From [Scytonema hofmanni] UTEX 2349 (lineage in GTDB: Bacteria; Cyanobacteriota; Cyanobacteriia; Cyanobacteriales; Nostocaceae), in NCBI RefSeq assembly GCF_000582685.1, contig NZ_KK073768.1, positions 2,308,074 through 2,348,073 on the forward strand: a DNA stretch of 40,000 nucleotides, in the 5' to 3' direction. Under the pieces are notes generated by a model. It was not told the DNA's origin and made no database searches. It was given only the letters and a program-made list of their open reading frames with translations. Positions 1,482 through 36,045 of the stretch are shown here, in pieces; the stretch's first letter is position 1, and each line of letters begins with the position of its first letter. The position numbers and the translations under genes were made by a program.

Positions 1482-4400
1482 ACAATATTTATGAATCTAA
1501 TCAAGAAAAATCAGTTTCATTACAACGTTTACTTAATGCCCTTAAACAAGCTCGTACTCAAATTGAAAATACGGAACGTCAAAAGACTGAACCAATAGCT
1601 ATTATTGGCATGGGGTTTCGTTTTCCAGGTGGTGTTAAAGACCAAGAGACATTTTGGCAACTATTACATCATGGTGTAGATGCTATTACAGAAATTCCCC
1701 AAAATCGCTGGGATGTTGATCGCTACTATGATCCCAATCCTGACGCTTCCGGGAAAATATACACTCGTTATGGTGGGTTTTTGGATCAGGTAGACCAGTT
1801 TGATCCCCAATTTTTCGGCATTGCTCCCCGTGAAGCAATGGACATGGACCCACAACACCGACTACTGTTAGAAATTACCTGGGAAGCCCTAGAAAACGCT
1901 GCCATAGCACCAGAACGCCTCAAAGGTACTCAAACAGGCTTGTTTGTGGGCATGAGTTCAGATGATTATTCCCAACTCAGTTTAAATTTTGATGATTTAA
2001 ATAGCTTAGATGCTTATAGAGGTTTAGGGAGCGCACGTAGTATTGCCGTTGGTCGTTTGGCTCATATCCTAGATTTACAGGGCTTGGTGCTGCAACTAGA
2101 TACATCCTGTTCATCTTCCTTACTAGGGATTCATTTAGCCTGTCAAAGCTTGCGTTCTGGTGAATGCAATCTAGCTTTAGCAGGTGGTGTAAATTTGATG
2201 CTTTCTCCCATTAATACCATTTTAGGCTGTAAACTTCGGGCTTTATCAGTTGATGGACGTTGTAAAACTTTTGATGCTGGGGCTGATGGTTATGTCAGAG
2301 GAGAAGGTGGTGGCATAGTCGTACTTAAACGGTTGTCTGATGCTATAGCTGATGGTGACAACATTCTAGCTTTAATTCGCGGGTCTGCTGCTAACCATGA
2401 CGGTAAAAGTAATGGATTAACCGCCCCTAATGGTGCTGCTCAAGAAGTAGTAATTAAGCAAGCTTTAGCTAATGCTAGGGTTACACCAGAACAAATTCAA
2501 TATGTAGAGGTACATGGGACGGGTACACCCTTGGGAGATCCGATAGAAGTTTTGGCATTAGGACAAGTTTTGTGTCAAAATCGCTCCAAACAAGAACCAT
2601 TAATGATTGGTTCACTCAAAACTAACTTTGGTCACTTGGAAGCAGCTGCGGGTATAGCCAGTTTAATTAAAGTGGTTTTATGTTTGCAAAACAAACAAAT
2701 TCCACCCCATTTGCACTTTCAAAATCCTAATCCTTATATACCTTGGGATAAATTAGCGATCGCTATTCCTACTCAGTTAACTGCTTTATCAGCACAAGAT
2801 AGTCCACATTTAGCCGGAGTTAGTTGCTTTGGCATGAGTGGCACAAATGTACATCTAATTGTCGAAGCAGCAGCAAATCAAGTTCAAATTGAAAATCATC
2901 AAGATTCACAACTGCATCTATTGACACTCTCAGCTAAAACAGAATCAGCTTTGCAAGATTTAGCCCAAAAGTATCAAGATTTTTTAACTAAGCATCCCTC
3001 AGCCTCTATTGCCGATGTATGTTTTACTGCTAACACAGGGCGATCGCACTTTGACCACCGATTAGCGATTATTGCCCAATCACATCAGCATTTACAACAA
3101 CAATTAAATTCATTCATTCAACAAACACCAGCTACAGAAGTAATTAGCGGTCAACTGACGAGCAAAAAACGCCCAAAAATTGCCTTTCTCTTCACCGGAC
3201 AAGGTTCGCAATATGTGGGGATGGGCAAAGAACTATACCAAACTCAACCAGTTTTCCGCCAATGCTTAGACCAATGCGCTCAAATTCTCAGTTCTGAGCT
3301 AGATTATCCCCTATTGGAAATCTTGTATGCAGACACAACTGAAAATCCCCTGATTCATCAAACAGCCTATACCCAACCTGCCTTATTTGCTTTAGAATAT
3401 GCCCTAGCTCAACTCTGGATTTCTTGGGGAGTGCAACCAGATATAGTTATGGGTCACAGTGTCGGTGAATACGTTGCTGCTTGTGTAGTCGGTATTTTTA
3501 CCTTAGAAGACGGACTCAAACTGATTACACAACGGGGACGGTTAATGCAACAGTTACCAGGTGGGGAAATGGTAGCAGTAATGGCATCAGCCGCACAAGT
3601 ACAAGCAATTATTGACAACTACAAAAACCAAATAGCAGTCGCTGCCTACAACACACCCAACAGCGTAGTAATTTCCGGTACAACCGCAGCCATCAAAGAT
3701 GTTTGTCAACAATTAACACAACAGGGAATCAAAACCAAACCTTTACAAGTATCTCACGCTTTCCACTCCCCTTTGATGCAGCCAATGTTGGCAGAATTTG
3801 CCGAAATAGCAGCAAAAATTACATACCATCAACCGCAAATTCCCTTAATTTCCAACCTCACAGGACAACCAGCCACAGCAGAAATAGCAACTGGACAATA
3901 CTGGGTAAATCATGTCACCCAACCAGTGAAATTTGCTGAGAGTGTCCACACATTACATCAACTGGGTTATAAAATTTGGTTAGAAATTGGCTCTCAGCCA
4001 GTATTGTTAGGAATGGCACGTCAACAGATTCCCGAAACAGAGCATTTAACCCTACCAAGTTTATATCCCAAACTGCCAGACTCACTACAATTATTGAGAA
4101 CTTTAGCTACACTATATGTATATAGTGTAGCAATTCATTGGCAGGATTTTCACAAAGTTAACCCCAACTGTCAGAAAATTCCCTTACCTACCTATCCATT
4201 TCAAAGACAACGCTACTGGATTAATAGTAATTCAGAAGTAAAAAATCAATCCAGCAATTCCTTATCCTATCAAGGTAAAAAACGGCATCCAATTTTAGGT
4301 TATCGTTTGACTGATTTAGCCGTCCTACCCCATACTTACATTTGGGAAACACCAATAGATGAATTTTACCTTTCTTGGTTAAAAGACCATCAGGTCTGGG

Positions 4401-4717
4401 ATACCGTGATTATGCCCCATACAGGATATTTGCAAATAGCTTTTGAAGCTACTCAGGAAGCTTTTAATCAACCCTGGAATAACATTAGTAATTTAAAACT
4501 GTACTATCCTCTGTTCTTGTCCACACAAGAGGAACAAAAAATACAGGTGATTCTCTCGCCACTATCAGATAGTAAAATGTTGCTTCAGGTGTATGGCTGT
4601 CGGCTGAGTAAGTCCTCCTCTGCATCAGAGTGGACTTTATACGCAGATGCACAAGTTTCATCTTCAGCAACCCATCCAGAACCAACAGCAAATTTACCGA
4701 TATTAACAAAAATATGA
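1478..4717 (+). CDS. Type I PKS, KS-AT plus the N-terminal hot-dog half of a DH (module 1, part a)
   Basis: 1079 aa. KS motifs: [51 protein letters not shown] motifs: [25 protein letters not shown]-half motifs: HPILGYRL and [13 protein letters not shown] (HxxxGxxxxP-like). The protein ends ..PILTKI* directly at the LLM start. Confidence 0.9.
1589..2866 (+). other. Domain: KS (PKS module 1)
   Basis: [23 protein letters not shown] has its Cys codon at 2108-2110. HGTGTPLGD and [10 protein letters not shown] supply the two catalytic His. The domain ends at GTNVHLIVE. Confidence 0.9.
3179..4020 (+). other. Domain: AT (module 1), malonyl-CoA type
   Basis: [16 protein letters not shown] has its Ser codon at 3458-3460. 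The HAFH motif ([10 protein letters not shown]) is the malonate-specific signature. The post-AT linker ends at [12 protein letters not shown] (~4223). Confidence 0.85.
4286..4714 (+). other. Domain fragment: DH N-terminal hot-dog half
   Basis: HPILGYRL (4286). The catalytic-His motif [13 protein letters not shown] has its His codon at 4388-4390. The fragment ends with [12 protein letters not shown], equivalent to the end of the first hot-dog, followed by a short linker and a stop. Confidence 0.75.
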
Positions 4718-5757
4718 AATTTGGTTTAATGTTCTTTGCTAGTAGCGAAGATGCTTTAGTGGGTGATAAATATAGTCTGGTGATTGAAAGTGCTAAATTT
4801 GCTGATCAACATGGCTTTTCTAGTATTTGGACACCAGAACGACATTATACTCAATTTGGTAGCCTCTACCCTAATCCGGCGGTATTAAATGCGGCACTAG
4901 CCAGGGAAACTCAACAGATTCGCTTGCAAGCAGGTAGTGTGGTGATGCCTTTGCATCATCCCCTGGAAATAGCCGAAGCATGGGCTTTAGTAGATAATTT
5001 GTCAAATGGCAGGGTGGGAATATCCTTAGCATCTGGTTGGAATCCCAGCGATTTTGCTACTTGTCCCCAAAAGTATAGCGATCGCCAGCAAACCGTTTTT
5101 ACCAATTTAGAAATACTGCAAAAACTCTGGCAAGGGGAATCTCTGAAAATTACCGACGGCAAAGGACAACCAGCAGAAATTCGTATTTATCCTACCCCTA
5201 TACAGCCTCAACTTCCCATTTGGATCACCGCAGCAGGTAATCCTCAAACATACATCAAAGCCGGAGAAATCGGGGCAAACCTGTTAACACACCTACTGGA
5301 TCAAGAAGTAGAAACCCTCGCAGAGAAAATATCTCTCTACCGTCAAGCTAGAGCTAAGTATGGTCACGATCCAGAAGCGGGTATAGTTTCACTCATGTTA
5401 CATACCTTTGTCGGTCAAGACTTCGAGCAAGTACGAGAACAAGCCAGAATCCCTTACTGTAATTATCTCAAAGCTAACATTGAACTGCTCAAAGGACTAG
5501 CTCAAAGTCGGGGGCATGATGTAGATATTACTAAATTACCTGAGCGAGACTTAAAGGAATTTGTTAACTTTTTATATGACCGCTTTGCTATCTCTAGAGG
5601 CTTAATCGGTACTCCTGAAACTTGTCAAAAGTTACTAGAACAGCTAGACGGCATTGGAATTGATGAAGTAGCTTGTTTATTAGATTTTGGTTTAAGTAAA
5701 GAACTTATTCTCCAACATTTACTAGACCTGAATCAACTACGAGAAAATTACAATCAT
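4714..5757 (+). other. Domain: luciferase-like monooxygenase LLM-1 (inserted between the DH halves)
   Basis: [71 protein letters not shown]. Paralogous to LLM-2 and LLM-3. Matches my recollection of the natural-product LLM domain family (TIGR04020-like). Confidence 0.8.
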
Positions 5758-8358
5758 CATACACAAACTACTGGTATTCCCCAGCGAGCAATTTTTCCCA
5801 CTACCCTCAACAATGGTTCTCAAAAGTCGCTGGCAATTTCAACCACATCCCCTACTACTCCTCTAGAATCATTAGAAACCATCCGGTTGCGCTGTCAAGA
5901 CCAAAGAAACGCCCGCGAATTTTATCAATTATTACAGAAAAACGGCTTACAGCTACAGGAAACTTATCAAGGTATCCAAAATCTATGGTTAGGTGAAAGT
6001 GAAGCATTAGCGGAAGTGAAGTTACCTCATGCTGTTAACTTTGGTAATAGTTTTCAAGTCCGAGCCGCAGTATTAGATGCTTGTCACCAAGTATTAGGAG
6101 CTACATTATTAGGTAAAATCCTATCTGGGGGAACAACCACCGATACACAGACTAATACCCCGGAAATGTCCTTGTATTTACCTACAGGGATCAAGAGTTT
6201 TCAAATTTATGAATCTTTAGGAACAGAAGTTTGGAGTCATGCGGTACTGCGACAACATCGAGGTATTGATGGTATAGCTGCTCATCATGAGATTGAAGGA
6301 GATATTTACATCTTCAATCACAACGGTAAATTGGTAGTTAAAGTCACTGGATTGCAGATGCAAAGCACCAGTTCCAGTAAGTCTACCAGTCAGCAACAAA
6401 AAGGGGCAAATTGGTTGTATGAATTACAATGGCAACCCCAACCAGAAAAAGAAGCAGTATCAAGCACAACAGAGCCGGGTTTATGGTTAATTTTTGGCGA
6501 TCGCTCTGGTATCAGTCAAAATCTAGTACAGTTATTAGAAGCTCAAGGTGATACTTGTTGGCTAATCCAACATAGTGAAAACTCCCAAAACCAAACCCCA
6601 AACCAAATAGTCATTACACCTGGAAATCAAACCCAGATCCAACAACTCATCACTAACATCTTAGCCCCAGGAGTTCCCCCCTGTCGCGGAATTGTGCATC
6701 TATGGAGTTTAGATGTTACTCCCAGTCAAGAAACAACTTTAGCATCTCTACAACAGGATCAAGTCCTAACTACCACAAGTCTTTTACACTTAACACAAGC
6801 AATTATCCAAACTACCACAACTCAAACTCTACCCTTGTGGGTTGTAACTCAAGATGTGCAGAAAGTCGGAGCCCAAACCACCCCCCGTTCTCCTGCACAA
6901 GCTCCAATTTGGGGTTTAGGACGAGTTATAGCCACAGAACATCCCAAACTGTGGGGAGGATTAGTAGATTTAGACGGAGAATCTACACCAGAAACATCCG
7001 CTAAACAATTACTGCAAATATTACAAGCAGATAGTCAAGAAGATCAAATAGTTTTACGTCAAGGACAACGCCATATTCTCCGCTTAGTGCGTAGTCAAAA
7101 AACACCAACTTCATCCCCAACCATCCAACCCGATGCGACATATTTGATTACCGGGGGATTTGGACATTTTGGACTACAAAGCGCCCAATGGTTAGCCCAA
7201 AAAGGAGCAAAACACCTAGTTTTAATCGGACGCAAAAACCCATCTAGTCAAGCACAGGAAGTCATTAATACCTTAGAAAAAACAGGAGTTCAAGTTCTGG
7301 TTTTCCAAGGGGATGTATCTGATCCAGTAGACATGACAGAGGCGATCGCCACCATTAAATCCCACTGTCCACCCCTAAAAGGAATTTTCCACATCGCAGG
7401 TTTCAGCCAACAAAGCCTATTATCAGATATCACCACCGACGATTTACAGGACATGTTGCGTCCTAAAGTTTTTGGCACATGGAACTTACACCAACTCACC
7501 CTAGAACTAAACCTGGACTTCTTCTTCAGTACCTCTTCCATGTCCCCAGTATTTGGTTCTCAAAAACTAGGACACTATGCAGCCGCTAACTACTTCCTAG
7601 ATATTTTTGCTGAGTATCGTCACAGTATAGGTTTACCAGCCTTAACCGTGAATGTTGGCGCTCTAGCAGGTGGAGGAATGGCTTTAGCTTCACCGGAAGG
7701 GGAAAAATATACTACCCAGATAGGTTTGAATTTAACCCATCCTGCTGATTTATTAGATGTGGCTGGAGGCTTTTTCACATCAGACGGTGTAGCAAATATC
7801 GTTATCGCCGATATGGATTGGTCAATCTTCAAACCTCTTTATGAAGGAACTACAGGCAAACTACTACTCGCACAAATAGAGGCACAAAGCAGTGTTGCTC
7901 AGGGAAAACCAGGAGAACGAGATATCTTTTGGCAACAGTTGGAGACATTACCAGAAAGTGAACGTTATCACCAAATAGTAGCTTATTTACAACAAGAAGT
8001 AGCACAAATTCTCGGTTACTCTGCTAATCAACCCCTGTTTAACCCAGAGGTTGGCTTCTTTGATTTAGGGATGGATTCTTTACTAGCTGTTGCTTTCAAA
8101 AATAAGCTAGAAACTAGTTTGGGTTCTTCTTTACCCACTGTATTGATTTTTGAACGACCGAATGTTACTAGTTTGACAGAGTACATTATTACCGAGGTCT
8201 TCAATTGGCAAATTTCAGCAGATTATGATCACAACAAACCAAAAGCAGAAGAACTAAGTTTAGAAGCCGAACTTTCGCAAACCATAGAACAATTATCTGA
8301 ACAAACACTAGAAGATTTAATTAATCAAAAATTAGCTAGAGCTTTGGAGGACGACTAA
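4714..8358 (+). CDS. PKS subunit LLM-DH(C-terminal half)-KR-ACP (module 1, part b)
   Basis: The probable start is ATG 4714, forming an ATGA overlap with the upstream stop at 4715-4717. The ORF-track Met at 4630 lies inside the upstream gene. Motifs in order: [41 protein letters not shown] (LLM); ETYQGIQNLW and AAVLDACHQVLG (DH C-half); YLITGGFGHFG, PKVFGTWNL and GHYAAANYF (KR); FFDLGMDSLLAV (ACP). Confidence 0.85.
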   Translation: MKFGLMFFASSEDALVGDKYSLVIESAKFADQHGFSSIWTPERHYTQFGSLYPNPAVLNAALARETQQIRLQAGSVVMPLHHPLEIAEAWALVDNLSNGRVGISLASGWNPSDFATCPQKYSDRQQTVFTNLEILQKLWQGESLKITDGKGQPAEIRIYPTPIQPQLPIWITAAGNPQTYIKAGEIGANLLTHLLDQEVETLAEKISLYRQARAKYGHDPEAGIVSLMLHTFVGQDFEQVREQARIPYCNYLKANIELLKGLAQSRGHDVDITKLPERDLKEFVNFLYDRFAISRGLIGTPETCQKLLEQLDGIGIDEVACLLDFGLSKELILQHLLDLNQLRENYNHHTQTTGIPQRAIFPTTLNNGSQKSLAISTTSPTTPLESLETIRLRCQDQRNAREFYQLLQKNGLQLQETYQGIQNLWLGESEALAEVKLPHAVNFGNSFQVRAAVLDACHQVLGATLLGKILSGGTTTDTQTNTPEMSLYLPTGIKSFQIYESLGTEVWSHAVLRQHRGIDGIAAHHEIEGDIYIFNHNGKLVVKVTGLQMQSTSSSKSTSQQQKGANWLYELQWQPQPEKEAVSSTTEPGLWLIFGDRSGISQNLVQLLEAQGDTCWLIQHSENSQNQTPNQIVITPGNQTQIQQLITNILAPGVPPCRGIVHLWSLDVTPSQETTLASLQQDQVLTTTSLLHLTQAIIQTTTTQTLPLWVVTQDVQKVGAQTTPRSPAQAPIWGLGRVIATEHPKLWGGLVDLDGESTPETSAKQLLQILQADSQEDQIVLRQGQRHILRLVRSQKTPTSSPTIQPDATYLITGGFGHFGLQSAQWLAQKGAKHLVLIGRKNPSSQAQEVINTLEKTGVQVLVFQGDVSDPVDMTEAIATIKSHCPPLKGIFHIAGFSQQSLLSDITTDDLQDMLRPKVFGTWNLHQLTLELNLDFFFSTSSMSPVFGSQKLGHYAAANYFLDIFAEYRHSIGLPALTVNVGALAGGGMALASPEGEKYTTQIGLNLTHPADLLDVAGGFFTSDGVANIVIADMDWSIFKPLYEGTTGKLLLAQIEAQSSVAQGKPGERDIFWQQLETLPESERYHQIVAYLQQEVAQILGYSANQPLFNPEVGFFDLGMDSLLAVAFKNKLETSLGSSLPTVLIFERPNVTSLTEYIITEVFNWQISADYDHNKPKAEELSLEAELSQTIEQLSEQTLEDLINQKLARALEDD
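5866..6363 (+). other. Domain fragment: DH C-terminal hot-dog half
   Basis: FYQLLQKNGLQLQETYQGIQNLWLGESEALAEVKLP is GYxYGPxF-like. AAVLDACHQVLG is the LDAxxQ/H motif with its Asp codon at 6076-6078. LPTGIKSFQIY is also present. Confidence 0.7.
6409..7850 (+). other. Domain: KR (module 1), structural plus catalytic subdomains
   Basis: WLYELQWQPQP..GLWLIFGD marks the start. The NADPH site is YLITGGFGHFG. The catalytic residues are Lys in RPKVFGTWNL, Ser in FSTSSMS and Tyr in GHYAAANYF. Confidence 0.85.
7966..8200 (+). other. Domain: ACP (module 1)
   Basis: YHQIVAYLQQEVAQILGY..FFDLGMDSLLAV. The Ser codon is 8077-8079. An acidic helical C-terminal tail follows and may be a docking element. Confidence 0.85.
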
Positions 8359-11300
8359 TGAGTGGGGAGTCAAATAACGTGCAGAATCTGTCCTCTTTAC
8401 AGCGTTCAGTTTTGCTGATTGAAAAATTGGAAGCGAAGATTAAGCGCTTAGAGTCTGCTAGGACAGAACCAATTGCTATTATTGGTATGTCCTGCCGTTT
8501 TCCGGGAGGTGCTGATAATCCTCAACAGTTTTGGAAAATTTTACACTCAGGTATTGATGCGGTAACAGAAGTTCCTGCAAATCGTTGGAACATAGCAGAT
8601 TATTATGATGAAAATCCGCATACTCCTGGGAAATTTTATACAAAATCAGGGGGATTTTTATCAGATGTAGATCAATTTGATCCTCTTTTTTTTGGGATTT
8701 CTGCCAGAGAAGCCGTTAATATAGACCCCCAACACCGCTTACTATTAGAAGTAACTTGGGAAGCATTAGAAAATGCTGGATGTATCCCCCAACGAAACCA
8801 AGGCAGTCCTACAGGAGTTTTTGTCGGTATTACCCTGAATGACTATGGTTCGATCGCTAAACAAACCAGATCCGATGTCAGTCAAGAAGCTTACGGAGTC
8901 ACAGGTTCACCCTCCTATGCAGCAGCAGGACGGATTTCCTATACTTTTGGCTTTACGGGTCCTTGTATGGCTATTGATACCGCTTGTTCATCTTCCCTAG
9001 TAGCCATTCATCAAGCTTGTCAAAGTCTTAGACAACAAGAATGTCAAATGGCGATCGCTGGAGGAGTGAACCTAATCTTACTCCCTGATAGCATGATTGC
9101 CACCGCTAAGGCTGGTATGCTGTCTAGTGATGGTCGTTGTAAAACCTTTGATGCTACTGCTGATGGTATTGGACGTGGGGAAGGATGCGGAATATTAGTT
9201 CTTAAACGTCTGTCAGATGCACAAGCTAATGGTGATAATATTTTAGCTGTAATTCGCGGTTCAGGAGTCAATCAGGACGGTCCTAGTAGTGGGTTTACAG
9301 TGCCTAATTGTGCTTCTCAGCAACAAGTCATGCGTCAAGCCTTGAAAATGGCGCAAATAGAACCTGCTGAAGTTAGTTATGTAGAAGCTCATGGTACAGG
9401 AACACCTTTAGGAGATCCCATAGAACTGCGTTCATTAGCAAAAATCTATGGTTCTCATCGTACTCACGATAACCCCTTATTCGTTGGTTCGGCAAAAACT
9501 AATATTAGTCACGTAGAAACGGCTGCCGGGGTAGCAGGAGTAATTAAAGTTATTTTACAATTACAACATCAACAGATTGCCCCCCATTTACATTTAAAAA
9601 ATCCCACAAATCACTTTAACTGGGAAGATTTTCCTTTAGTTGTTCCCACCCAAATTACACCCTGGCGCGTACAATCTGGTAGCCGCATCGGTGTGGTAAA
9701 CTCATTTGGGGCTACAGGAACTAACGCTCATATTGTTTTAGCAGAAGCACGAACACCATTAAAACCGGAAAATTCTGGTTTATTAGAGCGATCGCTCCAT
9801 TTATTAACTCTTTCTACCAAAACAGAACCAGCATTAAAAGATTTAGTAACCCTTTATCAAAATTGGTTTAAACAAAATACAGATTTAAAAATAGCTGATA
9901 TTTGCTATAGTGCTAACACAGGTCGCTCTCACTTTAAGCATCGTTTAGCTTTACTTGTGGCTGAACCTCAAGAATTAGCCGCAAAACTCCAAAATTTAAC
10001 CATTAGTCTGTCACAAGAGCAAAATACTGAAGAAAGTTCTAGCATTGCCGGAATGTTTCAGGGACAACTTGCTGCTAATAGTAGTGTACCTAATGTTGCT
10101 TTTCTGTTTACCGGTCAAGGTTCTCAGTATATTGATATGGGACGGGAACTTTATCAAACTCAACCCCTGTTCCGGCGGATTTTAGAGCAATGCGATCAAA
10201 TTCTACGTTCCGAGTTAGAAAAACCCCTATTAGAAATTCTTTACCCCCAAAATACAAATCAATCTCCATTTTCCCTAATTGACCAAACAAATTATACTCA
10301 ACCTGCCTTATTTGCCTTAGAATATGCCTTAGCTCAACTATGGATTTCCTGGGGAATTAAGCCTGCGGTGGTGATGGGTCATAGTGTGGGAGAATACGTA
10401 GCCGCTTGTATAGCCGGAGTCTTTAGTTTAGAAGATGGGTTAAAATTAATTGCTGCTCGTGGTCGTCTCATGCAGTCATTACCCCAAAATGGGGCGATGT
10501 TGGCTGTATTTGCAGATGCAAAACGGGTAGCAGAAATTATTGCTCCTTATCAAAATAGAGTTGCGTTGGCGAAGCCCGCCGTAGGCATCGCTGCCTACAA
10601 TGGAGCGCAAAATATTGTCATATCTGGGGAAAATCAGGCAATAGCAGCCATTAAAACCACCCTAGAGGCAGAAGGAATTGAAAGCCGCCCCCTGAACACC
10701 TCTCACGCCTTTCATTCACCTCTAGTAGACCCGATTTTAGAGCAGTTAGAACAAATTGCCAATCAAATAGAAATCCATCCTCCCCGCATTCCCATTGTTT
10801 CCAACTTAACAGGAGAAACATTATCAATCAATCAACCCTTAAACGGAAAATACTGGCGACAGCATAGCCGAGAAGCCGTAAAGTTTACCACAGGATTAGC
10901 AACATTAGTAGAAAAAGGCTATGAAACCTTTTTAGAAATTGGAGCAAAGCCCGCCTTGTCTAAAATGGGGCAGAGATGTAAATTAGGTGATAACCTCTTG
11001 TGGCTTTCTTCCCTAGTAGCAGGACAATCAAACTGGGCAACATTATTCAATAGTCTAGCTCAATTATATGTGCGTGGTGCAGAGGTGAATTGGTCAGGAT
11101 TTGATCAAGATTACCCACGCCAAAGATTTATTTTACCTAATTATCCTTTTCAACGTCAGCGTTACTGGTTGAAAATACCAAATGCAGATATGTCGTCCCA
11201 AAAAGCCATTGCAACTGCACCCATGAACGGAGAGGTTCCAGAACCAATTCCAGAACCAAAACCCCATACCTCTGCATCCTCAAAACAAGAACAAATTATC

Positions 11301-14300
11301 AAACTCTTACAATCTCTGATTGCTGAAGCACTGCAAACATCTCCAGACACAGTAGATATTCATACCCCATTAGTGGAAATGGGTGCAGATTCTATCGTGT
11401 TTATGAAAACAGGACAGCAGTTAGAATTGGACTTTGGGGTACGCATTCCTATCCGCAGATTATTTGAAGACTTATCTACGTTAAATGCTTTAGGTACTTA
11501 CATTGGCGAAAATCTACCAGCCGAATTTAAGTTTACTGATAATTTTACTGACAATCAACCTGTATCGCCACCTGTAACTTCAGAATCTCCAGATCCCCAG
11601 ACTGAGAACAAAGCAGTAGAATCTGCACTTAGTCAAATTCCTCCCACAGCAGAACCAGTTGGTACTACTGCTTTAGAGCGGATCATGAGTCAGCAATTAC
11701 AAACTATGTCTCAACTCATGTCCGAACAGTTAGCAGTTTTAAGAGGAGAAACTACCACCACACCACCACAGTTTATTCCTAACCAGAATCCTGTTAACTC
11801 ACCACAGACAACAATTAAAAACACTAAACGTCAGGAATTTTGGGAACGACGCGAATATAAACCCACATTAAGCGATATTCAAGACCAAGCTGCTAATTTT
11901 CCGCTAACTGTACCAACTAATAAAGAAATGCAATTTAGTCTTTATTATTTTGGCAGTTACGATGCAGAATTTACTCAAGATAAATATAGCCTTCTGTTTG
12001 GGGGAGTAGAATACGCAGACCAAAATGGCTTTACCTCTGTATGGCTACCTGAGCGTCACTTTCATGCTTTTGGTGGTTTTTCTCCTAACCCTTCTATTCT
12101 CTGTGCTTCTCTGGCTAAAGTTACCAAAAATATACAACTGCGGGCTGGTAGTGTAGTTTTACCCCTACATCATCCTGTGCGAGTAGCCGAAGATTGGGCA
12201 ATTATTGATAATATTTCTCAAGGACGAGTAGGAATTTCCTTTGCTTCCGGTTGGCATCCCCATGATTTTGTCTTTGCCCCAGAAGCTTATGATGACCGTC
12301 GAGAAATTATGTTTGAGGGCATCGAAACAGTACAAAAACTCTGGCGCGGAGAGTCAATTCAGCTACTTAGTGGTTCTGGTAACATGGCTGAAATCCGTAC
12401 CTTCCCCATGCCTCAGCAAAAAGAGTTACCTGTTTGGGTAACAATAGTTAATAACCCAGATACTTACATGAGAGCCGGGGCAATGGGAATCGGGGTTTTG
12501 ACTAACCTGATGGGGCAAACTGTAGAAGATTTAGCCCGTAATATTGCCATTTATCGAGAATCACTGGCACGTCATGGTTTTGATCCCCATGTTGGACGAG
12601 TGACATTATTGTTACATACTTATATTGGTACGGATATTCAACAAGTACGAGAAAAAGCCCGCAAACCATTCCAAAATTATCTCACCTCCTCTATTGGTCT
12701 ATTTCAAAGTTTAGTGAAAAGCCAAGGTTTACAGATGGCTGATTTTGAAAAGATGAGCGAGGATGATAAAGATTATATTCTGTCCGCAGCTTATGACCGT
12801 TATGTACAAACCAGTGCTTTAATTGGCACACCAGATTCTTGTATTGAAATTGTGGAAAAACTCCTAACTATTGGAGTTGATGAAATTGCTTGTTTAATTG
12901 ATTTTGGGGTGGAAGAAGAAGCTGTATTAGCCAGCTTACCCCACGTTAAGACTTTGAAGGAACGGATAAATAAAGTTAAAACCGATGATTGGTTTTATCG
13001 CTTAGATTGGCAACAACAGCCCCGCGATCTTCCTTTACAACCATCTCCAAAATCTGGACATTGGTTAATTTTTGCGGATGTCCAAGGTGTAGGCACAGCT
13101 TTAGCGCAACAATTACAGGTAGATGGTCAAACCTGTACGCTGATTTATCCCCAAGGTAGCAGTATTTCATTACCTAACGGGGCTTTGGAAATAGATCCTA
13201 CTGACCCAAAAGCTTTTAACCAACTTTTACAAAATCAACTTACAGCTAGTGAACTTCCCCTAAGTGGAGTTATTTATCTTTGGAGTCTCAACAGCCCATT
13301 ATCTCAGCAATTGACAGTTGATTTACTCCAGCAAACTCAACAAACGGTTTGCGGTGGTGTATTGCATTTAGTTCAAGCTTTAGACCAACAACCAGAGTTA
13401 AAAAATGCTTGTTCGCAAATGTGGCTAATTACACAACAAGCGGTTGCATCAGACAATACCGCACCAACAGGCATTGCTCAAGCATCCCTATGGGGATTCG
13501 GTCGAGTTATAGCCCTAGAATATCCAGAATTGTGGGGTGGTCTGATCGATATTGATAGGGATAATACCACAGCACAAGTAGAGCAAATATGGCTAGAAAT
13601 TAGAGCGCAACTGGGGAAAAAATCACAAGCTGAAGATCAGGTTTTATTACACCAAGAAAAACGTTATGTTGCCCGTTTAGTCCGTCAAACTGTTGGTAAT
13701 TCTGATATTAATAATTCCTCTGTTAATTTAGATCTAAAAGGCACTTATTTAATTACAGGTGGTTTGGGTGCTTTGGGTATTCGGTTAGCACAGTGGTTAG
13801 TTGATCGAGGAGTGCATCATTTAGTTTTGTGTGGGCGTTCTGCTCCTGCGGCTAAAATTCAAAAAACCATCACTCAGTTACAGCAACAGGGTATACAAGT
13901 GATAGTGGCTCAGGTAGATATATCTAAATTTAATGATTTATCTGAGTTGTTACAACAAATTCAAGGTAAAAATCAAGACAACTGTCCGCCACTGCAAGGG
14001 ATTTTCCACTTAGCTGGGTTGTTAGATGATGGGGCATTATTCCAGCAAACTTGGAAACGGTTTGATGCTGTATTTGCTCCTAAGATTTTAGGTACTTGGA
14101 ATCTTCATGTTTTAACTCAAGAACTGCCACTTAAACATTTTGTTCTGTTTTCTTCCATCGCTTCTTTATTGGGGTCTCCCGGACAAAGTAATCATGCGGC
14201 AGCTAATGCTTTTATTGATGCTTTAGCTCATTATCGTCAAGCTAATGGCTTGCCTGCTGTGAGTATAAATTGGGGTTCTTGGACAGAAATCGGGAAAGTA

Positions 14301-17300
14301 ACCAGATTAGAAGGATCGCAACAACAACGCTGGCAAGAATATTTTGATAAACTTTGGCGTAGTTATGGTATGGAGGCGATCGCCCCTAAAGCCGGTTTAC
14401 ACGCTCTGGAACAACTACTCAATCAACCTCCTGTACAAGTTGGGGTATTTCCCATTGATTGGTCTAAGTTCTGTGAGTCTCTGGGGGTTGAACAAAAACC
14501 TTTACTACTCTATTTAACCCAACCGGAAACAACATCAACAAGCACTTCCCCTATTAGGATTCCCTTAAGTGAAGCTCAAAAGCAACTGTGGCTATTAGCG
14601 CAAATTGTGGAAGAAGGGTCAATTGTCTATAATGACAACGTAAACTTAGAATTATGTGGTGATTTACACTTAGAGATTTTAAAAGAATCTATACACACTG
14701 TTGTGGAACGACAGGAAGCCCTCCGCACGATTATTGATCCTCAAGGAGAATGGCAAGAAATTCTACCAACTCTCAAAGTAGATATTCCCTTGGTTGACCT
14801 TTCCAGTACCAAGGATGAACAGGAGCAATGTTTACAAGATTGGTTGATTCAACGCAGTCAAAAGCCCTTAAATCTAACCACAGATCCTTTATTTCAAGTG
14901 GAAGTGTTGAAACTAGGACAACAGCATCATGTTCTAGTAATCACTGTTCATCACATTATTTCTGATGGTTGGTCTATAGAAAATATCCTCAAAGAAATTG
15001 CTCTGATTTATTCTGCGCTTTGTGAGGGGGCAGATGTTAAATTAGATACTCCCTTACAATTTCGGGAATTTCTCCACTGGCAAACCAACCGCAGCCAAAG
15101 TTCGGAAATGTTAAGCCATGAGTCCTTTTGGTTAGAGCAGTTTGCTGATTCTATTCCGGTGCTAGAACTGCCTACAGATCGGACTCGTCCCCTCCGCAAA
15201 ACTTATCATGGCAACCGTCAAACCCGTATCACTCCACCCCATCTGCGGGAGCAGTTACGGCAGTTTAGTCAGGGTCAAGGATGTACATTATTTATGACTT
15301 TGCTGGCTGCCCATTTTGTGTTGCTGCATCGTCTTAGTAGACAAGCAGAAATAGTTGTAGGTATTCCTACGGCTGGACGATTTCTTGCTAGTAGCGAAAC
15401 AATGGTGGGATATGCAACGCATTTATTACCTATCCGCAGTTGTTTTCAAGCAAACCTGTCTTTCTCAGCTTATTTGGCGGAAATTCGCAGCAGATTATTG
15501 GCAGCTTATGAACATCAAGATTATCCTTTTGCCCAGTTATTAAAGCAACTCAATCTAAAAACTGATAGTAGCCGTACTCCTTTGGTATCTGTGACATTTA
15601 ATTTAGAACCGCCTGTACCTACAGTGTCGTTGAAGAATTTAGACACGGCAATGATGTCACGACCTGTTAGCTTTACTCACTTTGACTTGCATTTTGTAGT
15701 GATTGACATGGGCGATCGCCTGATTTTGGAGGCAAAATATAATACAGATTTGTTTAATGATGCTACCATTGAGCGTTGGTTAGGTCATTTCCAAACTTTG
15801 TTAGAGGAAATCATTACCCAACCAAATCAAGAGATTGCTACTTTACCATTATTAACTCAGCTAGAACGTCAACAATTGTTAATAGACTGGAATTCTGGGT
15901 TAACACAATATTCCTCAGCACATTTAGAAACAGAATGTGTTTATCAACGTTTTGAAAAGCAGGTTAGTCAAAATCCTGATGCTTTAGCAGTGGTATTTGC
16001 AAAACAAAATTTGACATACCAGGAGTTAAACACAAGAGCAAATCAACTGGCTGTACATTTACGCAACTTAAATATTCCATCAGCTGGACGAATAGTTGTT
16101 TATGCTGAACGTTCTTTGGTGGCTTTGGTGGCTATATTGGGAATCTGGAAAGCAGGAGGGGTTTATGTTCCTATTGATGCTGCTAACACACCCCCTCAGC
16201 GTTTGGCGCTACTGCTAGAGGATATTCAACCAACTGCACTGTTAACTCAAACATCCTACAAATCAAATTTACTGGCTTCTCTCTCTTGTCCGGTGGTATT
16301 TTTGGACAAAGAAGGGAATGATAACTCAGAAAATCAATCACCAGAAATTCTCGACCCTAATTTTCCCCAGGTAACACCCGATGACTTAGCATATATTATC
16401 TTTACCTCTGGTTCTACAGGTCAGCCCAAGGGAGTAGCCATTAAACATCGTCATCTAGCTGCTTATACTACCAGCATGACTCAGCGTCTAGGTTTGCAGT
16501 CTGGTATGAGTTTTGCGACAGTATCCACTTTTGCGGCTGATTTGGGTTATACCGCGATTTTCCCCACATTGTGTACAGGTGGAACATTACACATCATTAC
16601 TCAGGAAACGGCTACTGACCCTCAAGCCTTAGCTACATACTTTAGCCAACATCAAATTGATTGTTTGAAGATTGTACCTGCTCACCTCAACGCTTTGTTA
16701 GAAGGTGAAAAATCATCACAAGTATTACCCCGACATACTCTGGTTTTAGGAGGAGATACCCTTGCTTGGGAGTTGGTGGGGAAAATTCAAACTTTAGCAC
16801 CGCAATGTCGGATTTTTAATCACTACGGACCTAGTGAAACGACGGTAGGGGTTTTAACTTTCCTGATAGATGATCAGCATTCGCCAAAATCATCTGCTAC
16901 TGTTCCTATAGGTCGTCCCCTGCCTCATGTCTGCGTTTATATTTTGGATCAGTATCAGCAACCCGTCCCGATTGGAGTTCCCGGAGAATTATATATTGGG
17001 GGTGCAAGTGTAGCGCCAGGATACCTAAATCGGGCAGAATTAACAACCGAGAAATTTATCCTTAATCCTTATTCTACAGAAACTGGCGAAGGCGATCGCC
17101 TTTACAAAACTGGAGATTTAGCCCGCTATCTCCCAGATGGTAATATTGAGTTCCTGGGCAGAATTGATAATCAAGTAAAAATACGGGGTTATCGCCTGGA
17201 ATTAGGTGAAGTAGAATCTGTGTTAAATCAGCATCCAGGTGTGCAACAAGCTGTAGTTTTGGCTTGGGAACAAGAACAAACAGGAGAAAAACGTTTAGTA

Positions 17301-20300
17301 GCTTATTGGGTGGCGGTAAAAACAGCAGGTGTTAGTGTTTCCTCCCAAGAATTACGTCAGTTTTTACAAGCAAAAGTACCTGATTACATGATACCGAGTA
17401 GTTTGATCAGGTTAGAGAATATTCCCTTAACGGCAAATGGTAAAATAGATCGTCGAGCGTTGCCCTTACCAGAACAAGATTTAAGTCAAGAAGTAGATTT
17501 TATTGCTCCTCGCACACCCACAGAACAGGCGATCGCAGATATCTTTGCCACTGTTTTACGGTTAGAATCAGTAGGTATTAACAATAACTTCTTTGAATTA
17601 GGCGGTCATTCCCTCTTAGCAACTCAGGTCATCTCACGACTACGGGAAACCTTCCAAATTGACCTACCTTTAGTTAGTTTGTTTACATCGCCTACCGTCG
17701 CGGGAATTGACTTAATTATTCATCAGCAAATGCAACAGGGTATAGTCAAAACTGCCCCTCCTATCACAGCTGTACCCCGTACTTCAAACACACAATTACC
17801 TTTAAGTTGGTCACAAGAGCGACTGTGGTTTATTGAACAATTAGAAGGGGCAAATGCTACCTATAATATGCCCGCCGCAGTTCGTCTACAAGGTAATCTC
17901 AATATTTCAGCCTTAGAACAAGCACTAGGGGAAATTGCCAAACGTCATGAAGTGCTAAGAACTGCTTTTAAATCAGAAGATGGTAAAGCAGTACAAGTGA
18001 TTTTCCCAGAGGCTACACTGAGCTTACAAACAATAGACCTACAGAATTTAACTAGCTCAGAACAGGAAAACAGTGTACAAAAACACATCATTGAGGAAGC
18101 GAAAACCCCCTTTGATTTGTCCCAACCTGCCTTAATGCGGGCTACCCTGTTACAGCTTAACCCTCAATCTTACGTGATATTAATCACAATGCACCATATT
18201 GTTTCTGATGGTTGGTCAGTAAGTATTGTAGTGCGAGAGTTGTCAACTTTATATCAAGCCTTTGCCCAAAACCGTCCTTCTCCACTGCCAGACCGGAATA
18301 TTCAATATGCAGATTTTACCATCTGGCAACGTCAATGGTTGACAGGAGAAGTATTACAAACCCAATTAAATTACTGGCAAAATCAGTTAGCAGGTAATTT
18401 ACCAATTTTGAATTTACCCTTAGATTATCCCTTATCTGCAAAGCAAGACTATCAGGGAGCGCAACAGAACATATCCATTAAACCAACCCTAACTAAAGCT
18501 TTGAAAGCATTGAGTGACCAAGAAGGGGTGACATTGTTTATGACCCTGTTTGCGGCATTCAATGTGTTGTTGTCCCGTCATACAGGACAGGAAGATATCA
18601 TTATTGGTTCACCAATAGCAGGACGTAATCATTTAGGTAGTGAAGATTTAGTTGGCTTCTTTATTAACACCTTACCCCTACGTACTAATCTGGCAGAAAA
18701 TCCCAGTTTCCAACAATTATTAAAGCGTGTCGGGGAAGTGACATTAGGAGCTTATACTTATCAAGATATTCCCTTTGAAAAGTTAGTAGAAGAATTACGC
18801 ACAGAACGAGTATTAAACCGTCATCCTCTATTTGATGTGTTGTTCAACTTTGTCAACACACCAGAAGCAGTTCTAAACATGGGGGATTTGACTTTTGAAC
18901 GTTTACCCCAACCCGAACCCTATTCCAAATTCTGGCTAACATTTTATATTCGCCAAGTTGGTGAAGCGTTAAATATTGAATTAGTTTATCGTCAAAGTTT
19001 GTTCACATCTGAAAGGATGAAAGCTTTATTAGAGCAATTTGTGGTTTTATTAACACAAGTAGTAGAACATCCTCACGAGACAATTCAATCTTATTCCCTC
19101 TTATCTCCTCAAACTGCGGCTTTAATACCTGATCCCTCTTTACCTTTGCCAGAACCAGACTATGAACTGGTAACAACATCATTTATTAACTGGGCTAAAC
19201 AAAGTCCTGAACAAATAGCAATCCGTCAAAATGGTAAAAAATGGACTTATGGAGAATTAGCAACAGCAGCCGAAAACATAGCCCAAGTTTTGATGAGTCA
19301 GGGGTTAAAACAAAAAGATGTAGTGGCATTATGGGGAGAACGTAGTTTTGGTTTAATTGCAGGTGTATTAGGGATTTTCCTGGCTGGGGGAGTGCTGTTA
19401 ATTATTGATTCTAACCTGCCACCACAAAGGCAAAACCTGATGTTAGAGCAAACCCAAGCGCGTTATTTAATTAGCATTGGTGAACCATCTCAGGTTGCTC
19501 AAGTTGTGGAAAAACAATTAAAGATGATTGCAGTTAATCCTGATACTGCTGCAACTGGGGAAGAAATGGTTAAGAGTGACATAGCGTTACCGACTCTTGC
19601 AGCCAAAGATCCAGCCTACATCTTTTTTACCTCTGGTAGCACGGGAACACCAAAAGGAGTATTAGGAAATCATCAAGGTGTTGCACACTTTATTCATTGG
19701 CAACGTCAAACTTTTGAGATTAAAGCAGGCGATCGCATTGCACAATTAATTGAACTTTCATTTGATGCAATCCTCAGAGATATTTTTCTACCCTTAACCA
19801 GTGGTGCAACCCTTTGTTTACCAGATCAATACTACATACCCGGTTCACCGCAAATTTTAACTTGGTTAGATGAAGAGCAAATTTCTGTTTTTCACACCGT
19901 TCCAGCCCTAGCTCAATCTTGGTTACAAAACATCCCAGAAAAAGTAACATTGAGTTCATTACGTTGGGTATTCTTATCAGGAGAACCCTTAACTCAATCT
20001 TTAGTTCAACAATGGCGACAAACCTTTGCACAAGCAGGAAATATTGTCAATCTTTACGGTGCTACCGAAACCACAATGGTAAAATGCTTCTATCCAGTAC
20101 CCCCAGAAATTCCCGCAGGAGTTATGCCTGGAGGTTGGTCTTTACCTGAAACTCAAATTTTGATTTTAAATAGCAAAAATCAACTGTGTGGAATTGGAGA
20201 AATTGGGGAAATAGTCGTGCGTACTCCCTTCCGCACCTTGGGTTATATTAAACCAATTCCTTCTCCCTTTGTCCTCAATCCATTCCGCCAAGATCCGCAA

Positions 20301-21128: not shown

Positions 21129-21869
21129 ATGTTAGGAATATTGGGAGGAATGGGACCATTAGCATCAGCAGAATTTGTCAAAACGATTTATGATTACAAT
21201 GTTTTTGGCAACAAGGAACAAGATGCACCAAGAGTAATCTTAAATTCTAATCCCACAATTCCAGATAGAACCAGTTTTCTGTTGAAAGGTGATTATGATT
21301 TATTGTTACTAAAATTAATAGAATCTGCCCAACAATTGGATGATTTACAGGTGTCTAAAATTATCATTTGTTGTGTCACATCCCATTATTTATTGCCCTA
21401 CTTTCCTCAGAAAATAAAAGAGAAAATAATTTCTTTAGTTGATGTTTGTTTGCAGGAAGTTTGGCATTCACAAAGCTGTCATCTGTTGCTGTGTACTAAT
21501 GGAACTCGGCAACTAAATGTATTCCAAACCAGTGATTTATGGGGCATGGCAGCAGATTATATTATTTTTCCTGATGAAAAAGAACAAATTGCTATCCACA
21601 ATATGATATATCAAATTAAGGTGAATAAACAGAGTTTTGATTCTGCTATCATTTTCTTGAACAATTTAATGAATAAGTATAATGTTAGTTATGTTATGTC
21701 TGGTTGTACAGAAATACATTTACTTAACCGATATATTCATTATCAAAAGTATAAAAATCAAGGAGATATCACCAATGATATTTTTTTAGATCCTTTAATG
21801 ATTGTTGCCACTAGATTAGAAAAATTTTTATGTGATAACGATATATTTTTTTCTCCTGTTTATTCCTAA
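21129..21869 (+). CDS. Aspartate/glutamate racemase family protein (McyF-like), embedded between the two NRPS genes
   Basis: 246 aa. The N-terminus MLGILGGMGPLASAEFVKTIYD is typical of the family. Both catalytic-Cys motifs are present: IIICCVTSHY (CNTAH-like) and MSGCTEIHLL (GCTE). An AGGAAAA motif sits just 5' of the ATG. The gene is visibly more AT-rich than its neighbours in the lines I sampled. Confidence 0.8.
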   Translation: MLGILGGMGPLASAEFVKTIYDYNVFGNKEQDAPRVILNSNPTIPDRTSFLLKGDYDLLLLKLIESAQQLDDLQVSKIIICCVTSHYLLPYFPQKIKEKIISLVDVCLQEVWHSQSCHLLLCTNGTRQLNVFQTSDLWGMAADYIIFPDEKEQIAIHNMIYQIKVNKQSFDSAIIFLNNLMNKYNVSYVMSGCTEIHLLNRYIHYQKYKNQGDITNDIFLDPLMIVATRLEKFLCDNDIFFSPVYS

Positions 21870-35992: not shown

Positions 35993-36045
35993 GGCGTTTA
36001 TTTACTTTACTCACTTATTTAATTGTAGTAAGCGTGCATAGCGCT

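What the first reader, a model, noticed from the sequence alone, without database searches (positions are those of the whole stretch)
11283..14470. Non-canonical module order KS-AT-ACP-LLM-KR-C: the carrier domain precedes its tailoring domains
Seen in sequence: in the 4236-aa hybrid protein the only carrier domain between AT2 and the first C domain is at 11283-11515 (GADS Ser codon 11391-11393). A ~140-aa Pro/Thr/Gln-rich linker follows, containing a helical Q/L-rich stretch (ALERIMSQQLQTMSQLMSEQLAVL). Then come LLM-2 and a full-length KR-like domain, which abuts the C domain directly.

Established knowledge: canonical cis-AT modules place KR before the ACP. KS-AT-ACP-Ox-aminotransferase orders are known for 2-hydroxy-3-amino fatty acid formation in cyanobacterial lipopeptides.

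Inference: this looks like that module type with the aminotransferase replaced by a KR-type domain. That predicts a 2-hydroxy-3-oxo or 2,3-dihydroxy acyl unit handed to the Asp module.
Basis: partly seen in the sequence, partly recalled or inferred. Interest (0 to 1): 0.65.

Follow-up and report, generated by a model that had tools for sequence, protein, structure and literature searches.

The report
Carrier-first hydroxylase–ketoreductase PKS module
A cyanobacterial lipopeptide assembly line has a rare but conserved module whose carrier domain comes before its hydroxylase and ketoreductase; it derives from a known amino-fatty-acid module and probably makes a 2,3-dihydroxy fatty acyl head group.

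Summary
In the 4236-aa protein (8358-21068) the order is KS-AT-ACP-(137-aa linker)-LLM-KR-C-A-PCP-C-A-PCP. No carrier lies between ACP Ser1012 and the first PCP, and only about 28 residues separate KR from C.

- KS-AT, ACP, both linker halves, LLM and C are collinear with KS-AT-ACP-AMT-LLM-C modules (Nostoc flagelliforme, Ralstonia RmyA). The aminotransferase is cleanly missing.
- The KR is an addition after the LLM, not a swap into the aminotransferase's slot.
- The known order is ACP-AMT-Ox, and in puwainaphycin it is carried by PuwE, not PuwB.

The KR has a full two-subdomain PKS KR fold with an intact NADPH motif and an LDD motif. Its catalytic Tyr is His (H1946). This His is invariant in five orthologues, while a sister family with the same architecture keeps Tyr. 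The KR catalytic half is under strong purifying selection. His-type KRs also occur in DH/ER-containing modules elsewhere, so it is probably still a reductase.

Most likely chemistry: α-hydroxylation of the β-ketoacyl-ACP, as shown for MupA, then reduction to a 2,3-dihydroxyacyl unit passed to Asp. No product is known. This is a new variant of a known kind and moderately interesting.

The parts
8466..9596 (+). KS2, ketosynthase of the module
   Evidence: Pfam ketoacyl-synt 2.8e-96 and Ketoacyl-synt_C 2.6e-42, aa 37-413. The DTACSSS and EAHGTGT motifs are visible in the translation.
10101..10973 (+). AT2, acyltransferase with GHSVGE and HAFH motifs (malonyl type by the usual rule)
   Evidence: Pfam Acyl_transf_1 3.8e-58, aa 582-872. 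Motifs read in the translation. The specificity rule is from my own knowledge.
11283..11516 (+). ACP2, the only carrier of this module; phosphopantetheine Ser1012 is codon 11391-11393
   Evidence: PP-binding 4.8e-15 on the isolated segment. Coordinates checked. Carrier census.
11517..11927 (+). 137-aa linker, read here as the scar of a lost aminotransferase. Its N-half holds the conserved helix LERIMSQQLQTMSQLMSEQLAVL (11670-11741). Its C-half holds the FWERREYKP pre-LLM motif.
   Evidence: No Pfam family at E<=10. blastp to N. flagelliforme: residues 1-207 (ACP plus ACP-AMT linker) at 2e-28, and residues 667-761 (AMT-LLM linker) at 1e-12. The helix is also found in Ralstonia RmyA, P0123 and P0042.
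11928..12977 (+). LLM2, an FMN-dependent luciferase-like monooxygenase of the MupA/Atu3671 family; predicted alpha-hydroxylase
   Evidence: TIGR04020 3.7e-158, 526 bits, profile positions 1-341 of 341. Closest to AMT-associated LLMs. MupA biochemistry from PMC10952193.
12984..13727 (+). KR2 structural (pseudo-Rossmann) subdomain
   Evidence: NF047870 KR prefix 1.3e-20. Model and fold search.
13728..14471 (+). KR2 catalytic subdomain. Motifs: TGGLGALG (NADPH), LLDD (B-type), catalytic K, S and N. The catalytic Tyr position is His1946 (codon CAT, 14193-14195).
   Evidence: Pfam KR 5.2e-66. Ungapped alignment to EryKR1. Codon. Motif alignment. dN/dS 0.08-0.10.
14472..14558 (+). Roughly 28-aa KR-C connector, too short for a carrier
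   Evidence: The same 20-32 aa gap occurs in P0121, P0122 and P0123.
14559..15881 (+). C1, the condensation domain (HHIISDG) that takes the acyl chain from ACP2
   Evidence: Pfam Condensation 1.7e-101. 54% identical to the C domain after AMT-LLM in N. flagelliforme.
15951..17747 (+). A1-PCP1, the Asp-activating acceptor module
   Evidence: Pfam. Specificity code DLTKVGHVGK (the GrsA reference was recalled from memory).

Best explanation
This is the second PKS module of a FAAL-primed PKS/NRPS lipopeptide line.

Proposed steps:
1. KS2 and AT2 add one malonyl unit, giving a 3-oxoacyl thioester on ACP2 (Ser1012).
2. ACP2 then serves domains that lie downstream of it, as in the KS-AT-ACP-AMT-LLM-C modules from which this module descends.
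3. LLM2, a MupA-family FMN monooxygenase fed by a free flavin reductase, hydroxylates C2 of the beta-keto thioester.
4. KR2, an NADPH-dependent B-type KR, reduces the C3 ketone.
5. C1 couples the resulting 2,3-dihydroxyacyl chain to Asp on PCP1.

Evolution: an ACP-AMT-LLM-C module lost its aminotransferase and gained a KR between LLM and C. This switched the beta substituent from amino to hydroxyl.

What is shown: domain identities, their order, the absence of a second carrier, conservation, and the ancestry of each part.

What is inferred: the chemistry, the order of the two reactions, and that the His-for-Tyr KR still reduces.
For: Order and single carrier.

KR fold.

Ancestry:
- LLM2 is 59-63% identical to AMT-associated LLMs and 47-51% to the other LLMs compared.
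- C1 is 54% and KS-AT 51% identical to the N. flagelliforme AMT-LLM protein.
- Both linker halves are retained around a missing AMT.

Conservation:
- The same architecture and synteny occur in Calothrix anomala FACHB-343 (94%) and Cylindrospermum FACHB-282 (79%).
- It also occurs in representatives P0121, P0122 and P0123 and in metagenome loci L021 and L022.

KR still functional:
- dN/dS of the catalytic half is 0.08-0.10, like KS, LLM and C1.
- The NADPH, LDD, K, S and N motifs are invariant down to 54% identity.
- The sister family with the same architecture keeps Tyr.
- His-type KRs sit in KS-AT-DH-cMT-ER-KR-ACP and AT-DH-cMT-KR-ACP modules, where reduction is needed for DH and ER to have a substrate.

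Chemistry precedents:
- CcsC (LLM-cMT-KR-ACP) goes with a 2,3-dihydroxy-2-methyl acyl unit in cyanochelin B (PMC12628792).
- AMT+Ox modules give 3-amino-2-hydroxy acyl units (PMC4219810).
Against: - The catalytic Tyr of the SDR tetrad is His in the window and its four closest relatives. I found no biochemical study of a His-type KR.
- The sample showing many His-type KRs is biased, because the word index favours sequences sharing NHAAAN. An unbiased small sample had 12 Tyr and 0 His.
- No product is known for this cluster or for its relatives.
- The upstream module (LLM1 within a split DH, then KR-ACP) may deliver an oxidised chain, so the true substrate of LLM2 and KR2 is uncertain.
- No flavin reductase gene lies in the window.
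Confidence: 0.6

Rival explanations
1. KR2 no longer reduces. With His in place of the catalytic Tyr it is kept as a scaffold or dimerisation element for LLM2 and C1, or as an epimerase or gatekeeper. The module would then hand a 2-hydroxy-3-oxoacyl chain to Asp.
For: - Tyr is replaced by His at the position aligned without gaps to the EryKR1 catalytic Tyr. The change is fixed in five orthologues.
- Non-reducing KRs retained for other roles are known, for example the C2-type KR 3QP9 among the fold hits.
- The MupA study reports that alpha-hydroxylated species are unstable, so a protective partner domain is conceivable.
Against: - All NADPH-binding and other active-site motifs are invariant at 54% identity.
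- dN/dS is as low as in the catalytic KS and LLM domains.
- The Tyr-to-His change arose independently in a large group of KRs found in DH- and ER-containing modules, which need a working KR.
- C2-type KRs typically lose the NADPH site instead (my own knowledge).
Confidence: 0.22
2. LLM2 does something other than simple alpha-hydroxylation. Examples are Baeyer-Villiger-type or chain-shortening oxidation, as proposed for CalD and MndB, or action after KR2 on the 3-hydroxyacyl chain. The head group would then differ from a 2,3-diol.
For: LLMs of PKS lines are credited with hydroxylation, epoxidation and chain shortening (review text in PMC8739492). The cluster carries three LLM domains in three different contexts.
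Against: - LLM2 groups with the LLMs of AMT-LLM modules, whose products carry a plain 2-hydroxyl.
- It has a full-length TIGR04020 match.
- MupA acts on the beta-keto stage.
Confidence: 0.1
3. The order is an artefact (misassembly, a frameshift hiding a carrier, or a decaying pseudogene) and has no biological meaning.
For: None found. The contig is a draft assembly.
Against: - There is a continuous ORF.
- The order is identical in independent assemblies from three Nostocales genomes, a TARA scaffold and four other metagenome contigs.
- Every domain is under purifying selection.
Confidence: 0.02

Closest known systems
KS-AT-ACP-AMT-Ox-C hybrid modules for 3-amino-2-hydroxy fatty acids (PuwE of puwainaphycin; Ralstonia RmyA; N. 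flagelliforme pNFSY04 WP_225912764)
   Same: - The carrier precedes its tailoring domains.
- A MupA-family LLM lies directly before a C domain.
- The same linker motifs are present.
- KS-AT, ACP, LLM and C are the nearest relatives found.
   Different: - There is no aminotransferase.
- A full KR is inserted between LLM and C.
- The predicted beta substituent is hydroxyl, not amino.
Cyanochelin B CcsC (BAU16015), LLM-cMT-KR-ACP
   Same: A MupA-family LLM and a KR act in one module on a FAAL-primed chain. The product has a 2,3-dihydroxy acyl unit next to the first amino-acid-derived residue.
   Different: - The order is canonical, with the ACP last.
- It has a C-methyltransferase.
- LLM is 51% and KR 37% identical.
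- CcsC was not among the His-type KR hits; the motif search used for the tree did not score it.
- The acceptor is a cyclisation domain.
Mupirocin alpha-hydroxylation bimodule (MupA with MmpD KR4 and ACP_D4)
   Same: An FMN-dependent LLM of the same NCBIfam family hydroxylates an ACP-bound beta-keto thioester. With a KR this yields the 6,7-diol (PMC10952193).
   Different: MupA is a free-standing protein in a trans-AT PKS. The KR lies before its ACP. No NRPS hand-over is involved.
KS-AT-KR-ACP-LLM-C modules (metagenome locus L029) and carrier-LLM-C modules (L048, L072, L075, L100)
   Same: An LLM is placed after the carrier and directly before a C domain.
   Different: The KR is either in the canonical pre-carrier position or absent.

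Membership tests
Post-carrier AMT/Ox module (PuwE/RmyA type) | Carrier followed by tailoring domains and then a C domain, with no second carrier | tested here: met
   The gap between KR and C is about 28 aa.
Post-carrier AMT/Ox module (PuwE/RmyA type) | MupA-family LLM directly related to those of AMT-LLM modules | tested here: met
   59-63% identity to the N. flagelliforme, L005 and RmyA LLMs, against 47-51% to the other LLMs compared.
Post-carrier AMT/Ox module (PuwE/RmyA type) | Class-III aminotransferase domain between ACP and LLM | tested here: not met
   No Aminotran_3 hit in the protein or in any ORF of the window. The flanking linkers are present without the domain.
Modular PKS ketoreductase (SDR) | Two-subdomain fold with a Rossmann NADPH motif | tested here: met
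   Pfam KR 5.2e-66. KR prefix 1.3e-20. Model pLDDT 92.8. TM 0.87 to EryKR1. TGGLGALG motif.
Modular PKS ketoreductase (SDR) | Catalytic Lys-Ser-Tyr-Asn tetrad | tested here: not met
   K, S and N are present, but Tyr is His1946. The sister family P0123, L021 and L022 has Tyr.
Modular PKS ketoreductase (SDR) | NADPH-dependent reduction of a beta-ketoacyl-ACP | not testable with these tools
   Only indirect support is available: purifying selection and His-type KRs in DH/ER modules.
MupA/Atu3671 FMN-dependent LLM (TIGR04020) | Score above the curated cut-off over the full profile | tested here: met
   526 bits against a cut-off of 244.45, profile positions 1-341 of 341.
Canonical reducing cis-AT PKS module | Reductive domains placed between AT and ACP | tested here: not met
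   The ACP (976-1053) precedes the LLM (1191-1540) and the KR (1543-2038).

The most novel reading that the evidence does not exclude
The Lys-Ser-His-Asn ketoreductase is not a plain beta-ketoreductase. On this reading, His-type KRs are an unrecognised catalytic variant of PKS ketoreductases that arose at least twice. In this module the variant would be tuned to the labile 2-hydroxy-3-oxo thioester, for example by a different proton relay, a different stereochemical outcome or an alpha-ketol/enediol step. The result would be a head group not yet seen in lipopeptides.
Probability: 0.15. Interest if true: 0.7.

Novelty: new variant of a known kind. Interest (0 to 1): 0.45.

Why it matters
- It shows how an assembly-line module was rewired. 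An aminotransferase was deleted and a ketoreductase added after the carrier, probably switching a beta-amino to a beta-hydroxy fatty acyl head group while keeping the alpha-hydroxylase.
- It gives genome miners a rule for predicting 2,3-dihydroxyacyl lipopeptides from KS-AT-ACP-LLM-KR-C architectures.
- It shows that a full KR can work, or at least persist under selection, downstream of its carrier and fused directly to a C domain. That is useful for engineering.
- The conserved His at the catalytic Tyr position, seen again in many canonical KRs, points to an untested assumption in KR activity prediction.

Tried and rejected
- **Hidden carrier between ACP2 and PCP1.** Pfam at E<=10 on sub-segments and a six-frame phmmer scan with four carrier queries found none.
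- **Sequencing error for His1946.** Rejected. The codon is CAT, and His is present in five independent assemblies.
- **P0122 as a natural split with the ACP in trans.** Rejected. tblastn shows KS-AT-ACP-LLM continuous across a 100-N scaffold gap in L017.
- **Truncated FAAL gene at 222-1481.** This is only a window-edge effect. The frame is open from base 3.
- **The cluster as a cyanochelin BGC.**
  - Cyanochelin C is unrelated in architecture.
  - Cyanochelin B uses the canonical LLM-cMT-KR-ACP order.
  - The cyanochelin A paper (PMC8357277) is not held.
- **Literature on His-for-Tyr KRs.** Two searches found nothing relevant.
- **The search for homologous proteins.** It returned only proteins of roughly query-like length, so it missed the full-length relatives. 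These came from the genome scan and the representative search instead.
- **Burkholderia arboris and B. sp. FXe9 hits.** The B. arboris locus proved to be of the LLM-DH-KR-ACP type, not LLM-KR-C. The FXe9 hit was not examined further.
- **Known product.** I could not link the cluster to any described compound.


Full report
**Context**

The window (about 40% G+C) is one co-directional FAAL/PKS/NRPS cluster:
- FAAL-ACP, running off the 5' end of the window (the frame is open from base 3).
- KS-AT-DH(N-half), 1478-4717.
- LLM1-DH(C-half)-KR-ACP, about 4714-8358.
- The 4236-aa hybrid protein, 8358-21068.
- An Asp/Glu racemase, 21129-21869.
- C-A-PCP-C-A(LLM3 embedded)-PCP-TE, 21966-30272.
- A CmlA-like diiron beta-hydroxylase, a cupin-8/JmjC protein and an MFS transporter.

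A TPR gene on the opposite strand and a split DDE transposase follow. An exact-protein look-up places the window on contig JACJTA010000074.1 of assembly GCA_014698435.1.

**Observation**

- ACP is aa 976-1053, with Ser1012 in MGADSIV (codon 11391-11393).
- A 137-aa linker holds ALERIMSQQLQTMSQLMSEQLAVL at aa 1105-1128.
- LLM is about 1191-1540 and the KR region is 1543-2038.
- The C domain starts at about 2068.

Pfam finds exactly three PP-binding stretches in the protein. Scans of isolated segments at E<=10 find nothing in the linker. At the KR-C junction they find only the start of a Condensation domain. A six-frame phmmer census with four different carrier queries finds carriers in this protein only at about 976-1053, 3056-3130 and 4124-4190. 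The KR-C connector is about 28 residues, too short for a carrier.

The KR region is a complete modular-PKS KR:
- KR-prefix domain at 1.3e-20, plus a PKS_plus_SDR match over all 496 residues.
- E 4.8e-54 to EryKR1.
- An AlphaFold model with pLDDT 92.8 and pTM 0.94.
- Best structural matches EryKR1, TylKR1 and AmpKR2, with target-normalised TM 0.82-0.87.

**Where the module comes from**

tblastn against plasmid records showed that the ACP-linker-LLM part is most like regions of the Ralstonia megaplasmid (RmyA locus) and of a Nostoc flagelliforme plasmid. Pfam on those proteins gives ACP-AMT-LLM-C-A-PCP.

Domain by domain, the window protein is collinear with the N. flagelliforme protein:

| Part | Identity to N. 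flagelliforme | Comparison |
|---|---|---|
| KS-AT | 51% | |
| ACP | 39% | |
| LLM | 63% | 47%, 49% and 51% to LLM1, LLM3 and CcsC |
| C | 54% | 31-36% to other C domains |

The linker splits into two matches:
- Its N-half, with the helix, aligns to the ACP-AMT linker: LERIMAQQLQLTSQVISQQLQLL in Nostoc and LERLLSQQLDALSQLTARQLALF in Ralstonia.
- Its C-half (FWERREYKPTLS...MQFSLYYFG) aligns to the AMT-LLM linker (FWGRRTHKPNVN...ISFSLYYFG).

About 460 residues that hold the class-III aminotransferase are simply absent.

The KR's nearest non-orthologous relatives are KRs of LLM-containing canonical modules: window KR1 39%, CcsC and Burkholderia 37%.

- The known order is ACP-AMT-Ox.
- The puwainaphycin protein is PuwE.
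- The KR is not in the AMT's place.

**Distribution**

- A scan of one genome per species (185,579 species) found the full LLM-KR-C stretch in only two other genomes. These are Calothrix anomala FACHB-343 (94% identity) and Cylindrospermum sp. FACHB-282 (79%), with the same gene order.
- An exhaustive HMMER search of 1.84 billion cluster representatives gave only three proteins with contiguous LLM-KR-C.
  - P0121 has 69% identity and the same eleven-domain order.
  - P0122 has 56% identity and lies on a TARA marine scaffold. Its cluster has the same racemase and a similar terminal C-A(LLM)-PCP-TE gene.
  - P0123 has 48% identity and comes from a different cluster: FAAL-ACAD-ACP, then the hybrid, then TauD and further NRPS genes.
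- A metagenome scan added two more loci of the P0123 type, L021 and L022.
- Among the LLM domains mapped in the 80 metagenome loci kept from that scan (some loci hold more than one), the neighbourhoods were as follows.

| LLM neighbourhood | Count |
|---|---|
| AMT-LLM-C | 9 |
| carrier-LLM-C | 5 |
| LLM-DH-KR | 4 |
| ACP-LLM-KR-C | 2 |
| LLM embedded in an A domain | about 26 |

One locus, L029, has KS-AT-KR-ACP-LLM-C.

The carrier-first LLM-KR arrangement is therefore real and conserved. It is rare, and it is used by at least two different cluster families with cyanobacterial-like G+C.

**The ketoreductase**

The ungapped alignment to EryKR1 puts His1946 (CAT, 14193-14195) at the catalytic Tyr position: GQSNHAAANAF against GLGGYAPGNAY. 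The catalytic Lys, Ser and Asn, the TGGLGALG NADPH motif and an LLDD (B-type) motif are present.

- His is invariant in the window, L003, L004, P0121 and P0122, down to 54% KR identity. P0123, L021 and L022 have Tyr (GQSNYGAANAF).
- Nei-Gojobori dN/dS for the KR catalytic half is 0.08-0.10. That compares with KS 0.05-0.13, LLM 0.07-0.17 and C1 0.08-0.26. It is lower than AT and the A domains.
- A search with the catalytic half returned KR(-ACP) fragments of which 42 of 104 scorable ones have the same GQxNHAAAN motif, including 4 of 11 that are fused to an ER. This sample is biased by the word index. An unbiased sample of 12 KRs from the metagenome loci had only Tyr.
- Two His-type fragments sit in KS-AT-DH-cMT-ER-KR-ACP and AT-DH-cMT-KR-ACP modules. 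There, DH and ER would have no substrate without a working KR.
- A rough neighbour-joining tree puts all ACP-LLM-KR-C KRs in one clade, with the His group sister to the Tyr group. The bulk of the other His-type KRs lie elsewhere, so the change arose at least twice (no support values).

I take this as indirect evidence that His-type KRs reduce. No biochemical study was found.

**Mechanism**

*Shown by experiment elsewhere:*
- Cyanochelin B carries a 2,3-dihydroxy-2-methyl acyl unit. The authors assign the reduction at C-32 to the KR of CcsC, a protein I find to be LLM-cMT-KR-ACP.
- AMT plus Ox modules go with 3-amino-2-hydroxy acyl units.

*Inferred here:*
1. KS2 and AT2 (HAFH motif) make a 3-oxoacyl-ACP2.
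2. LLM2 hydroxylates C2.
3. KR2 reduces C3.
4. C1 (HHIISDG) couples the 2,3-dihydroxyacyl chain to Asp (A1 code DLTKVGHVGK).

*Rest of the line* (inference; the specificity codes rest on a GrsA reference recalled from memory):
- A2 reads DARTFSLMVK, and DARHFSLMVK in P0122. It is possibly fed by the adjacent racemase.
- A3 reads DASTIAAVCK (Tyr).
- A4 reads DILQMGMIWK (Gly) with LLM3 embedded. This recalls MtaG-type terminal amide formation (my own knowledge).

The predicted product is a hydroxylated acyl-Asp-X-Tyr-amide with extra beta-hydroxylations. No such compound was found in the literature searches.

**Verdict**

- The chemistry (LLM plus KR giving a vicinal diol) and the principle of post-carrier tailoring are both known. 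Their combination as ACP-LLM-KR-C is a rare, conserved variant that I did not find described. The His-for-Tyr KR adds real uncertainty.
- I rate it a new variant of a known kind, with interest 0.45.

Noticed in passing
window 4240-6400 (end of gene 1478-4717 and start of gene about 4714-8358): The first PKS module has an LLM inserted between the two hot-dog halves of its DH domain. PKS_DH_N lies at the end of one gene; LLM1 and then PS-DH lie in the next. The protein is split exactly at that point. The arrangement is very common: 117 of the 120 best hits have LLM followed by DH (116 of them LLM-DH-KR, with or without ACP), from cyanobacteria, Ktedonobacteria, myxobacteria and Burkholderia. Its chemistry is unclear to me.
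   Followed up: partly
window 27279-28331 within gene 21966-30272: LLM3 is embedded in the last A domain, which has a Gly-type code (DILQMGMIWK), and is followed by PCP-TE. This looks like the MtaG/MelG arrangement for making a C-terminal amide (from memory). A-embedded LLMs were the most frequent context in the metagenome sample.
   Followed up: partly
window 14193-14195; proteins P0275-P0388; loci L019 and L020: KR domains with His at the catalytic Tyr position (GQxNHAAAN) are numerous in public data and occur in canonical DH/ER-containing modules. On a rough tree, most form a group separate from the window's KR. I found no paper on them.
   Followed up: partly
window 11670-11741; L011, L012, P0042, P0123: A helix motif, (L/M)ER(I/L)(M/L)xxQLxxxSxxxxxQLxxL, recurs just after the carrier and before the first post-carrier tailoring domain (AMT or LLM) in cyanobacterial, Ralstonia and other proteins. 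It may be a docking or dimerisation element.
   Followed up: partly
window 19200-20700 (A2) and 21129-21869: The second A domain has an unusual code, DARTFSLMVK (DARHFSLMVK in the TARA relative). It lies next to an Asp/Glu racemase gene that is syntenic in all relatives. From memory this resembles the D-MeAsp/D-Asp module of microcystin synthetase. Not verified.
   Followed up: no
L029 (metagenome JAESFO010000356.1) and L014 (P0042): Other ways of combining the same two domains exist. L029 has KS-AT-KR-ACP-LLM-C. P0042 has KR-helix-LLM with no carrier between the two, in a 54% G+C organism.
   Followed up: no
L015/L016 (JGI metagenomes), L021, L022: The Tyr-type sister family has a loading protein in which FAAL is fused to an acyl-CoA dehydrogenase and an ACP. 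A TauD hydroxylase gene lies after the hybrid. This suggests an unsaturated or otherwise modified acyl chain and a beta-hydroxy amino acid.
   Followed up: no
window 35929-37241: A DDE transposase is split into two overlapping ORFs (DDE_Tnp_1_assoc and DDE_Tnp_1) just beyond the MFS gene and the opposite-strand TPR gene. It probably marks the cluster border.
   Followed up: no
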